A DNA stretch of 64,000 nucleotides from Eledone cirrhosa (lineage: Eukaryota). The DNA is taken from NCBI GenBank assembly GCA_964016885.1, contig OZ024742.1, positions 116,126,001 through 116,190,000 of the forward strand. The letters are read 5' to 3'. The notes under the pieces are model-generated. The model was not told the origin of the DNA. It worked only from the letters and a program-made list of their open reading frames with translations, and did not search any database. Positions 41,276-44,619 of this stretch are shown here, piece after piece (the stretch's first letter is position 1; each line of letters begins with the position of its first letter). The translations under genes and the position numbers were made by a program.

Positions 41276-43865
41276 TATTATATATATATAAACATATATA
41301 CACACACATATATAAATATATATATGGAGGAGGTTATAGTTCACTTGAAGAATTGTGTAATGAGGTATAAACGTGTGTATATGTATAATAAAACCAAAAC
41401 AATGCAGGTATGGACATAGAATAAAGAATGCAAATGCAAAAGATATTGTTGACAATTAGTCTTTTACCTTAGATTTATTTAAATGTCCTTAATTTTCGAG
41501 ATAATATCTTTTCTTCAGAGGGATGTAAAGCTGTCAAACCAGTGTTCTAAATAGCTTGCCAAGCATGACTTGGAAAGCTATTTAGAACACTTCTATACAC
41601 AATCATACACACCAGTGTATATTTATATATATATATATATATATATATATATATATATATATATATATATATATATATATATATATAGATATATATATAT
41701 ATATATATATATATAGATATATATATATATATATATATATATATATATATATATATATACACTGGTGTGTATGATTGTGTATAGAAGATTATATTAATAA
41801 AAAGAATTCCAACTTTGTCTGATTTACTCGTTTTATTTACAATCTTTTAAAATTATAATGATATTATAATGAAATAGTATGGTAGAATATTAAATGTTAA
41901 GTATTAATTGAACAAGTATTTTCATGCTTTCGCAATCTTCAGGTTCACATTCTGTGGTGACATTCAAGTTTTCAATTTTCATATATACATATATATATAG
42001 TGCAAATTTGGACGGGAACAATGTATATATATATATATATATATATACATATGCTAACCGACCACTTTAAGTAATAATATATTTATATATTTTAGACTTT
42101 ACTAATTGGGTTTTTTCCAAAGTGAGCAGTAGAAGGTAGCATTTTGATAACTACTATTGATTTAGAAAACGTAGACGTAATTATGAATTGCCCACTTGGG
42201 CTTGTGACCAGAGTCTTGTGAGTTAGGTAGACTAAATCTGTTTAAAGGCAGCTTTGCTGAGGTGTATCTGTAATTCAAAGTCCCAATCTTATTCCCAAAT
42301 TCTGGAGAATTACGTTGAGGGTAAATATAAAACATTGATTGCTCCGTAAGTTTACCGTATGTACTGATAGGTAAGACATTTCGTTTATCCATACAACTGA
42401 AACACAAATCGTCGAAAGAGACGGATGGCCATTTATTTTATTTTAAATATATTCTTATTGCTATTTTAAAGTGTTCAATGCAGTGCATTTAAAGGGCCAA
42501 TGCTGGAGTAGCTTGTAGGCATTTCGTTACGTCTCTTTACGTTCGATATTCAAATGATGATATTATCAGTTTTGATTTTTATCATTTATTTTATAGAATA
42601 AAGGGGAGTGGTTTTAAAATAAGGTACCAGCGGAAGGACTGTAGTCGATTTAATCGCCTATAATCCACTTCTCTAATACATTTAAGAAGACACGTAACTT
42701 AGTGTTCAAGATAATGAGGTGGGTTCGATTCCTTTACAAGGAGGCTACGATGTTCTTGAGAATGATGCTTCATTCCCCGTTGATTGTTATGCTAACATTG
42801 GGGTATTTATGAACAAAACCTCTCTATGCGATGCAACTTCGTAGTAGGAGAACTAAAACTACATATGTGTGAGCTGTGAAAACAACAACTAATATCTGTG
42901 ATTTTCTACGTCAAAACTATTCTGTACATTACGCTTCAAAAAACTACACTTAAATATAGTTATTAGAAACAGAGGAGTGGCAAAATATTTAGAGCGTCAG
43001 ACTGAATTACTTGCAATATGTATTGCGTCACTTTACGTTATGGGTATAAATAGCCCGCGGGTCAAATTTTATTATAATTTTTCCTCCGTCGTCAATATAA
43101 AGAACTAGGCAACTGCAATAGACAGTCCCCTTTCTCTAGAAATTAACGTATATCATCAGTATTTTGTGGGAAAACGGGGAGTAGTGGTTGCACGAAATTT
43201 CCCAGTAAATATCATTCAGGAATTGAGATCTACGTAATGATCAGTGTACCTCTTCTTAGAAAACAATCTCTTTTGACTTTACAACAGTAAGATCGTTGAA
43301 GCGTCTGACAAATTGGCTTGTGATACTTACATATAACTCCCTTATTTTCTGAACCAACTTAAGTCTACTGTAGTTGTCTTCTTTCCAAAAGTCTATACAG
43401 TAAACTAGCATTCTAGTAATGCGGTAGAGTGTTATAGAGTCCACTGCTCACTATTAGAAAAATTTCTGTCCTTGAAAATATGAATGAAATCAATGGTATT
43501 ACTCACTTTTATGAATTTTACTAAACAGAAAATATGTTGTTAAACCGAGAGACCAGGTGTGGTTTTTCATTCTTAAAATATACTAATAAATAAATGTTGA
43601 CGTTTACTAACACCGGATCGTATAAATAATTGATGAAATCATTTTACATAACTTTGACCGACTATCATTACATATATGACACGGAAATAAACATTCATCC
43701 ATATGTACACGTATACTTCAACACGTAGATATTTCCCTGTTTGGGTGTATATATATATATATATATATATATATATATATATATATATATATATATATAT
43801 ATATATATATATATATATATATATATATATTTCTAAAGAATATATATGTTCTCGACTGTTTTCTA

Positions 43866-43959
43866 GTCCAGCAATAGCAAGCGGTGGGAGCGACCGTCCT
43901 GACGAAGGCCGGTCAAGCCTGAAATGCATAGACGGTTGTCCCACTTGCTTCTGCTGGAC
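43866..43959 (+). ncRNA. Type I hammerhead ribozyme, predicted cleavage after 43930
   Basis: CGACCGTC-CTGACGA-AGGC CGGTCAA GCCT-GAAA-TGCA-TA-GACGGTTG. Stem I extends about 30 bp with bulges (GTCCAGCA/TGCTGGAC). Confidence 0.9.
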
Positions 43960-44293
43960 ACCACGAGAGGGCGTTATCCCCGATGTTTGCAGAGCTACGG
44001 ATCCCTTAAACCGTTTCTTTAGATATACGAAATGTATATACATGTTGTATAAAGCTTTGATTGAAGCGAAATCTTATATATATATATATATATATATATA
44101 TATATATATATATATATATATATATATATATATATATATATATATATATATATATATATATATATATATATATATATAAGATTTCGCTTCAATCAAAGCT
44201 TTATACAACATGTATATACATTTCGTATATCTAAAGAAACGGTTTAAGGAATCCGTAGCTCTGCAAACATCGGGGATAACGCCCTCTCGTGGT

Positions 44294-44387
44294 GTCCAGC
44301 AGAAGCAAGTGGGACAACCGTCTATGCATTTCAGGCTTGACCAGCCTTCGTCAGGACGGTCGCTCCCACCGCTTGCTATTGCTGGAC
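44294..44387 (-). ncRNA. Type I hammerhead ribozyme (mirror copy)
   Basis: Same as 43866-43959, with stem II AGGCT GGTCA AGCCT. Confidence 0.9.
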
Positions 44388-44619
44388 TAGAAAACAGTCG
44401 AGAACATATATATTCTTTAGAAATACGGAATTTCTATACATATTGTATAAAGCTATGCTTGAAGCGAAATCTAATTTCTTTTCTATTATAAGTTGAGCCA
44501 ACTTAATTTCATAGATTTTGGTCAGTATTGGCCCGGGCCATGTCTAACTTAATAGCAACACCTGACGAAGTCTTTCAAATCAGGATTTGGTCACCAAAGC
44601 CCATTCAAGAAGAGAGTTA

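What the first reader, a model, noticed from the sequence alone, without database searches (positions are those of the whole stretch)
43828..44520. Textbook hammerhead with a ~30-bp stem I, mirrored around a (TA)n spacer
Seen: the best ribozyme candidate in the window, with all core nucleotides intact, present on both strands. The right unit is already a fold-back element, and 248 bp of it was copied again in inverted orientation across the TA tract with about 2 mismatches. Inference: second-order palindrome formation with (TA)n as the hinge, and recent.
Basis: partly seen in the sequence, partly recalled or inferred. Interest (0 to 1): 0.74.

Follow-up and report, generated by a model that had tools for sequence, protein, structure and literature searches.

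The report
Retrozyme copy mirrored at TA repeat
This is one decayed copy of an abundant 321-base repeat that carries a hammerhead ribozyme motif, and 247 bases of it were duplicated backwards across the neighbouring TA repeat, likely by DNA folding back on itself during repair; similar TA-hinged mirrors occur about as often beside unrelated DNA in this genome, so the mirror is probably an accident and not part of the ribozyme's biology.

Summary
In detail: 247-bp arms with 2 mismatches flank (TA)52, each with an intact type I hammerhead core. The unit is a truncated copy of a ~321-nt, 41% GC repeat (2,281 candidate places) that ends in TA tracts and shows partial tandems and Penelope-type 5' inversions: a non-LTR retrozyme. 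Helix III is one pair plus a palindromic loop, the type that cleaves well only as a dimer. The tail-to-tail mirror is not the family's head-to-head inversion. It copies this insertion's own junction and 16 departures from the family, so it most likely arose later by snap-back synthesis at the TA tract. It is not ribozyme-specific: about 7 of ~790 family ends and 6 of 775 random TA tracts are mirrored. Sequencing-run contigs break exactly at the mirror edge in 2 of 3 runs, which favours real DNA without proving it. The scan has already reported head-to-head retrozymes elsewhere in this genome; a word look-up found no note on this tail-to-tail form. Expression and cleavage are untested.

The parts
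43748..43830 (.). (TA)41, left part of the target tract; its last 3 bases (43828-43830) also fit the start of the mirrored arm (microhomology)
43828..44074 (+). Mirrored arm (the inferred later copy): 17 nt of the 5'-inversion junction plus monomer positions ~89-321, 3' end facing the hinge
43866..43959 (+). Type I hammerhead with 27-pair interrupted stem I; core 43899-43930; 4-bp stem II; 1-bp helix III with palindromic loop; predicted cut after 43930
44075..44178 (.). (TA)52 hinge, self-complementary
44179..44425 (-). Original arm: 5'-truncated retrozyme copy with its 3' end in the TA tract; lacks monomer positions 33-88, which hold the octamer-like motif
44294..44387 (-). Second hammerhead, mirror of the first; core starts at 44354; one loop II difference at 44343
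44413..44505 (+). Head-to-head 5'-inverted segment of the original insertion: monomer positions ~261-321 running on into 1-32 across the head-to-tail junction; only its first 13 nt are mirrored

Best explanation
A truncated copy of a ~321-nt hammerhead-bearing repeat sits with its 3' end in a TA tract, and 247 bases of it were copied backwards across that tract, likely by snap-back DNA synthesis after the copy had already aged in place. Step 1 (architecture shown, enzyme inferred): the family behaves as a non-LTR retrozyme; a Penelope-type reverse transcriptase likely primes on both strands of a cut TA tract, giving TA-anchored 3' ends, partial tandems and head-to-head 5' inversions. Step 2 (shown): this copy lost monomer positions 33-88 and departs from the family majority at 17 of 225 scored columns. 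Step 3 (inferred): a break or stalled fork in the TA tract leaves a 3' (TA)k end that pairs with itself, the polymerase copies its own strand for 247 nt, and the new end re-anneals to the remaining TA tract through a 3-nt microhomology. Step 4 (predicted): the two ribozymes lie on opposite strands, so no RNA carries two; a read-through RNA would form a 247-bp duplex that buries the ribozyme. The mirror is most likely a neutral by-product and a dead end for the element.
For: Family: 2,281 first-look candidates, 40 scored, best non-self 90%. Period 321 nt, GC 41%; of 28 loci, 27 have TA at the 3' end, 14 a 5' inversion (7 ending at one position, about 35 nt before the main end), 12 a head-to-tail junction. 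PLE insertions show partial tandems, inverted 5' copies and a 30-40-bp tail (PMC8557442 passages). Later origin: 16 shared departures against 1+1 private in 225 columns; 29 head-to-head segment pairs from other loci share 0-5 and are 84-98% alike; the arm and the inverted segment of the same insertion share none where they overlap; the junction matches end to end at high identity only here among 40 scored of 1,379 candidates. Generic: 7 tail-to-tail family loci against ~790 TA-tailed ends (395 forward matches doubled); 6 mirrors in 775 (TA)>=8 tracts with a complex flank in 1.6 Mb of evenly spaced genome; Fisher p = 1.0. Far ends of the short arm lie in TA in 5 of the 7 family mirrors. Real DNA: contigs of runs X2 and X4 stop exactly at 44425/43828, and arm depth is 15.1 against 8.7-9.8 in the flank in X1. 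Snap-back followed by microhomology annealing is a described repair route, TA/AT primers included (PMC5728401 passages); AT/TA repeats form cleavable cruciforms (PMC12972899 abstract). Duplex buries the ribozyme once a transcript passes ~44330.
Against: No contig was laid across the TA junction at 43828; the X1 contig runs on into the unmirrored context only. The depth ratio could also come from a heterozygous flank; the runs are one sample that may be the assembly's own, with library type not on record. 247 nt is long: short-range template switches in apes have median 12 and maximum 128 nt (PMC7954356 passage). The need for a self-complementary hinge is not shown: 0 mirrors in 219 CA/GA tracts, p = 0.35. 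Three of the 6 other family mirrors share no departure from the majority and could be separate insertions or made at insertion. The mirrored arm is more diverged (17 of 225) than the unmirrored part of the insertion (2 of 91), p = 0.11. Family and control mirrors were counted by different methods. No partner element was found; no covariation in the hammerhead.
Confidence: 0.65

Rival explanations
1. The mirror was made by the Penelope machinery itself, either during integration (the finished cDNA folds back at the TA end) or later by reverse transcription of this locus's own read-through RNA into its own TA tract.
For: The copy has the shape of an insertion: 3' end in TA, 5' end joined to TA by microhomology. 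4 of 6 control mirrors abut a repeat, one with a minimal hammerhead-like core (L196). An RT/endonuclease-like ORF family is abundant in the genome. The unmirrored segment is only 2 of 91 from the majority, so the insertion could be young if the arm's changes came from its template.
Against: 68% of all scored TA tracts abut a repeat anyway (526 of 775). Mirrors of sequence with 0-1 other hits exist (L106, L250). The copy runs 100 nt past the predicted cut site and the octamer-like region is deleted here. No source copy above 90% among 40 scored.
Confidence: 0.15
2. The mirror is a read fold-back or assembly artefact at the TA tract.
For: Long TA tracts and near-perfect palindromes are hard to sequence. 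No laid contig spans the TA junction, X1 runs through in the unmirrored context, and the listed contigs carry only the left-arm letter at 43910/44343.
Against: Each arm carries one private change away from the family majority. The sequence returns to a TA tract and unique flank, which a simple fold-back read would not. Two runs break at the exact edge and arm depth is 1.2-1.7 times the flank. Other mirrors range from about 94% to 100% identity, as expected of real events of different age.
Confidence: 0.1
3. The mirror is as old as the insertion and its arms are kept alike by hairpin-driven conversion.
For: Conversion of near-perfect to perfect inverted repeats is known (PMC7954356 passages). 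L037's head-to-head arms are 98% alike and share 5 departures.
Against: Most head-to-head pairs are not homogenised, including L031 with a very short loop (83.6%, 0 shared).
Confidence: 0.06
4. Two independent insertions into one TA tract, or a hairpin kept by selection as a double-stranded RNA source.
For: The family targets TA tracts (27 of 28); a read-through RNA would give a very stable duplex.
Against: The arms are 99.2% alike while the next copies are at most 90%, and the copy includes the first insertion's junction. The mirror rate equals background. Nothing here shows conservation.
Confidence: 0.04

Closest known systems
Metazoan non-LTR retrozymes (Cervera and de la Pena 2020, PMC7229834; Li, Clavereau and Pollet 2026, 10.64898/2026.07.22.740005)
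   Same: Type I hammerhead in a non-coding ~300-nt monomer below 45% GC (here 321 nt, 41%), head-to-tail junctions, thousands of copies. Helix III matches the description of the amphibian HHR_Amex1 type: single pair capped by a palindromic tetraloop.
   Different: Mostly dispersed sub-dimers: 1 of 28 loci has two same-strand ribozymes. TA-anchored ends with 5' inversions. This copy is truncated and mirrored. Circular RNA not shown.
Penelope-like element insertions with inverted pseudo-LTRs (Craig et al. 2021, PMC8557442)
   Same: Partial tandems, 5'-inverted truncated copy, two end points about 35 nt apart, microsatellite (TA)n targets, hammerhead in the repeat unit.
   Different: No ORF in or joined to the unit. 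The PLE inversion is head-to-head with 3' ends outward; the mirror here is tail-to-tail with TA inside.
Snap-back SD-MMEJ and short-range template switching (PMC5728401; PMC7954356)
   Same: New inverted repeat primed by a self-complementary end and closed by microhomology.
   Different: Published tracts are mostly tens of bases (maximum 128 in the ape set); here 247, primed from a long microsatellite.
Palindrome-seeded inverted triplications (ODIRA type; Aspergillus 10.1101/2025.01.14.632981, abstract)
   Same: Inverted copy seeded at palindromes in AT-rich DNA.
   Different: Here the non-TA sequence is present twice, not three times, and only the TA tract flanks both sides.

Membership tests
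Type I hammerhead ribozyme | Conserved core CUGANGA, GAAA, UH around three helices with stem I open | tested here: met
   All core positions present; intact in 37 of 49 aligned family segments; stems I and II predicted at 0.98 and 0.95
Type I hammerhead ribozyme | Stable helix III within one molecule | tested here: not met
   One pair plus palindromic loop; two molecules give a 6-bp duplex of -6.7 kcal/mol; palindrome kept in 42 of 49. Same as the described amphibian variant
Type I hammerhead ribozyme | Match to Rfam hammerhead models | tested here: not met
   No hammerhead family at E up to 10 on 43835-44070
Type I hammerhead ribozyme | Covariation in the stems | tested here: inconclusive
   94.6% of cells paired, 2 pairs with a change on both sides, no excess over shuffles (110 of 500) in 49 young copies
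Type I hammerhead ribozyme | Self-cleavage at the predicted site | not testable with these tools
   Needs in vitro transcription
Non-LTR retrozyme | Non-coding monomer of about 170-400 nt, GC below 45%, one type I hammerhead | tested here: met
   321 nt, 41% GC; frames across the locus are TA read-throughs only
Non-LTR retrozyme | Head-to-tail tandem units with at least two ribozymes | tested here: met
   Met by the family: 12 of 28 loci have the junction, 1 of 28 (L027) two same-strand ribozymes. This copy has the junction at 44413-44505 but one ribozyme per strand
Non-LTR retrozyme | Expressed as linear and circular monomer RNA | not testable with these tools
   No RNA run was available for the test
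Non-LTR retrozyme | Mobilised by a Penelope-like element | tested here: inconclusive
   End structure fits. The one candidate ORF family tested shares no DNA with the monomer in 25 loci and has no Pfam or meaningful PDB match
Pseudo-LTR of an autonomous Penelope-like element | Unit joined to an RT/GIY-YIG ORF in at least some copies | tested here: not met
   In 28 loci the sequence 5' of the monomer is another monomer piece, an inversion or differing flank; only 1.5-kb flanks of top-scoring copies were seen, and they were not scanned for ORFs
Foldback / MITE DNA transposon | Fixed terminal inverted repeats shared by copies | tested here: not met
   14 of 28 copies have no inversion and inner inversion points differ in each copy
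Snap-back templated inverted insertion | Self-complementary primer, inverted copy of adjacent DNA, microhomology at the return point | tested here: met
   (TA)52 hinge, 247-nt inverted copy with 16 shared departures, 3-nt microhomology
Snap-back templated inverted insertion | Dependence on a host repair polymerase | not testable with these tools
   Needs genetics

The most novel reading that the evidence does not exclude
Long TA tracts in this genome act as a standing hairpin factory: about 0.8% of them have mirrored 20-250 bases of whatever lies beside them, roughly 11,000 mirrors genome-wide (4,000-24,000, extrapolated from 6 in 1.6 Mb). The breaks are supplied by TA-targeting Penelope endonucleases, so these retroelements create double-stranded-RNA-forming palindromes even where they insert nothing.
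Probability: 0.25. Interest if true: 0.6.

Novelty: new member of a known kind. Interest (0 to 1): 0.3.

Why it matters
The ribozyme is one more family of a known class, and the scan has already noted several in this genome. The usable point is the separation of two palindrome types that look alike. Head-to-head inversions with outward TA ends record how the element integrates; tail-to-tail mirrors with TA inside most likely record a later, general repair event and should not be read as retrozyme biology. If the census holds, TA microsatellites are a countable source of new perfect hairpins (raw material for small RNAs, editing substrates, fragile sites), and mirrors that copy aged repeats give an internal clock for that process.

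Tried and rejected
Rfam on the whole window gave 271 matches; the 150 listed are microRNA-type matches to simple repeats below gathering score and none covers the locus. Rfam on the unit gave 2 chance matches. Covariation was uninformative. Partner search: a Pfam accession recalled for Penelope proteins is not in the library. The window's ORF at 50439-51218 has 46,772 first-look candidates and motifs I recall from Penelope-type proteins, but no Pfam match, only chance PDB matches and no DNA likeness to the monomer; its class is therefore recalled, not shown. Expression: no RNA holder listed; run X3 laid nothing; neither bears on expression. RAD run X5 gave 26 reads, nearly all from other family copies. 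CA/GA hinge control is underpowered; a further 200 kb of control sequence could not be fetched. The octamer-like motif (intact in 30 of 34 copies) recalls the snRNA-type promoter of newt satellite 2; that is from memory, the paper is not held and the search did not retrieve it. Literature searches (listings only) showed no census of TA-hinged mirrors; this is not proof that none is in print. Look-ups of scan notes near this place and for the tail-to-tail form were empty. Rejected: MITE/foldback transposon, two independent insertions, mirror as a device for dimer cleavage.

Full report
Observation. The mirror is exact: arms 43828-44126 and 44127-44425, 247 non-TA bases each, two mismatches, around (TA)52, with (TA)41 at the left end. 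Each arm holds a complete type I hammerhead core with the cut predicted after 43930. The region folds far better than shuffles (z -6.1, 0 of 200), with 27 pairs in stem I. Rfam does not recognise it. Helix III is one A-U pair and a palindromic 4-nt loop; two molecules could form a 6-bp helix. PMC7229834 (passages; Discussion read whole) describes this kind of helix III in axolotl retrozymes, which cleave 6% in one hour as monomers and much better as dimers.

The family. The window lies in a 3.0-Gb genome that looks animal by its repeats; the organism was not determined. The arm has 2,281 first-look candidates; of 40 scored, the best non-self match is 90%. A natural dimer (L027) gives a period of 321 nt and 41% GC. 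Among 28 loci (L003-L030, chosen as best matches, so biased to long copies), 27 have TA at the 3' end, 12 have a head-to-tail junction, 1 has two same-strand ribozymes and 14 have a 5' inversion; 7 of these 14 end at reference position 291, about 35 nt short of the main end. Copies depart from the majority by 3.8% on average (49 segments, sd 2.5%). The core is intact in 37 of 49 aligned segments; two partial or gapped segments of the 51 found were left out and the two window copies added. Covariation is no higher than in shuffles, as expected for young neutral copies. This anatomy fits a non-LTR retrozyme (PMC7229834; 10.64898/2026.07.22.740005, parts 1-2 of 5 read) with Penelope-type insertion marks (PMC8557442 passages). 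The mobilising enzyme is inferred; the one candidate tested shares no DNA with the monomer.

The right unit. 44179-44408 is monomer positions ~89-321 on the minus strand. 44413-44505 is a plus-strand piece that runs through the head-to-tail junction. The copy lacks positions 33-88, which hold an octamer-like motif intact in 30 of 34 copies; a promoter role is recalled from newt satellite 2 and was not checked.

The mirror is a different event. It is tail-to-tail with TA inside. It starts within the inversion junction, which matches end to end at high identity only at this locus among 40 scored of 1,379 candidates (one other place matches 126 of 141 bases at 87%). In 225 scored columns the arms share 16 departures from the family majority and have one private change each. 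Twenty-nine head-to-head segment pairs at other loci share 0-5 departures and are 84-98% alike. So the copy was made from this genomic insertion, at roughly 6% of its mutational age (0.7-21%) if no conversion has acted. The return point has a 3-nt microhomology with the TA tract. Against a simple clock: the unmirrored part of the insertion departs at only 2 of 91 columns (p = 0.11), and L037 shows head-to-head arms that share 5 departures.

How common. An exact tail-to-tail pattern with gaps of 10-160 nt finds 7 loci including this one. The six others have short arms of about 23-86 nt; five are 97-100% alike and L034 is too short to judge. Three share 1-3 departures from the majority and three share none. 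TA-tailed ends number 395 on the forward strand; the reverse count of 1,251 is inflated by overlapping matches, so I use ~790. In 160 evenly spaced 10-kb stretches of contigs C1-C4, 6 of 775 (TA)>=8 tracts with a complex flank (6 of 1,610 in all) carry mirrors of 20-155 nt, none of this family; 3 of 1,118 shorter tracts do; 0 of 219 CA or GA tracts do (p = 0.35). The family rate does not differ (p = 1.0 against 775, 0.14 against 1,610). Four of the 6 abut repeats, as do 526 of 775 tracts. Two of the 6 (L115, L196; 94%) could be paired insertions. The two counts use different methods, so the comparison is rough.

Real or artefact. Three runs of one sample hold the locus; the library type is not on record and the sample may be the assembly's own. 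In X2 and X4 the arm-specific contig ends exactly at the mirror edge, where the graph should branch if both contexts exist. In X1 it runs on into the unmirrored context. Arm depth is 15.1 against 8.7-9.8 for flank contigs in X1, and 8.7 against 5-7 in X2. No contig was laid over the TA junction, and listed contigs show only the left-arm letter at 43910/44343, so one mismatch may be an allele or a consensus error. A heterozygous flank could also give the depth ratio. The evidence favours real DNA and does not prove it.

Mechanism. Best reading: a 3' end in the TA tract pairs with itself, is extended over the adjacent 247 nt, and rejoins the remaining tract by microhomology. Snap-back SD-MMEJ gives this product in principle (PMC5728401 passages), AT/TA repeats form cruciforms that nucleases cut (PMC12972899 abstract), and template switches make inverted repeats, though published tracts are shorter (PMC7954356 passages). 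What made the break, a replication problem or a Penelope endonuclease, is open. For the RNA, the hammerhead fold is predicted at 0.98 until a transcript reaches about 44300 and at 0 from 44330, when the antisense arm pairs with it. The mirror gives no same-strand partner and no circle.

Standing. Notes of this scan on other pieces of the genome already describe head-to-head retrozymes with two fixed ends; they agree with what searches showed before I read them and are not independent support. A word look-up for the tail-to-tail form was empty. Four literature searches (listings only) showed no census of TA-hinged mirrors. No supplements were read; repeat libraries or the supplements of PMC8557442 and the 2026 preprint may already name this family. 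Verdict: new family member of a known retroelement class carrying a generic, probably real, repair-made mirror. Interest 0.3.

Noticed in passing
window 6136-6551: Distant relative of the family (76-80% over short stretches, degenerate ribozyme) preceded by a 32-bp mirror hinged on (TA)6 at 6165-6176, at the position matching the family's second end point.
   Followed up: partly
window 22150-22360, 19928, 37370: Four further hammerhead-like cores of other sequence; 22201 (-) and 22311 (+) form a head-to-head palindrome.
   Followed up: no
window 50439-51218: 259-aa open frame of a very abundant family (46,772 first-look candidates; open frames up to ~800 aa) with motifs recalled from Penelope-type RT/endonuclease proteins; no Pfam or meaningful PDB match.
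   Followed up: partly
window 44901-45335 (-), 37943-38836 (-), 1697-2059 (+): Retroelement-like fragments; the first matches Pfam RVT_1 (E 2.6e-7), the other two have no Pfam match.
   Followed up: partly
L037 1003-1395: Head-to-head arms 98% alike that share 5 departures from the majority, with an AT-only centre and a 40-nt deletion: possible hairpin conversion.
   Followed up: partly
L036 890-1461: A separate 94% palindrome of non-family DNA around a TA-rich centre, directly beside a family mirror.
   Followed up: no
L234 8582-8883: 139-bp perfect mirror of another repeat with TA at the hinge and at both outer ends.
   Followed up: partly
family monomer, reference position 44-51 (L027 1783-1790): Octamer-like motif intact in 30 of 34 copies, deleted in the window's copy; possible internal snRNA-type promoter (recalled analogy, untested).
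   Followed up: partly
window 43891, 43911, 43943: The window copy differs from nearly all family copies in stem I and loop II (loop II letter in 2 of 49, both window copies), which may weaken loop-loop contacts.
   Followed up: no
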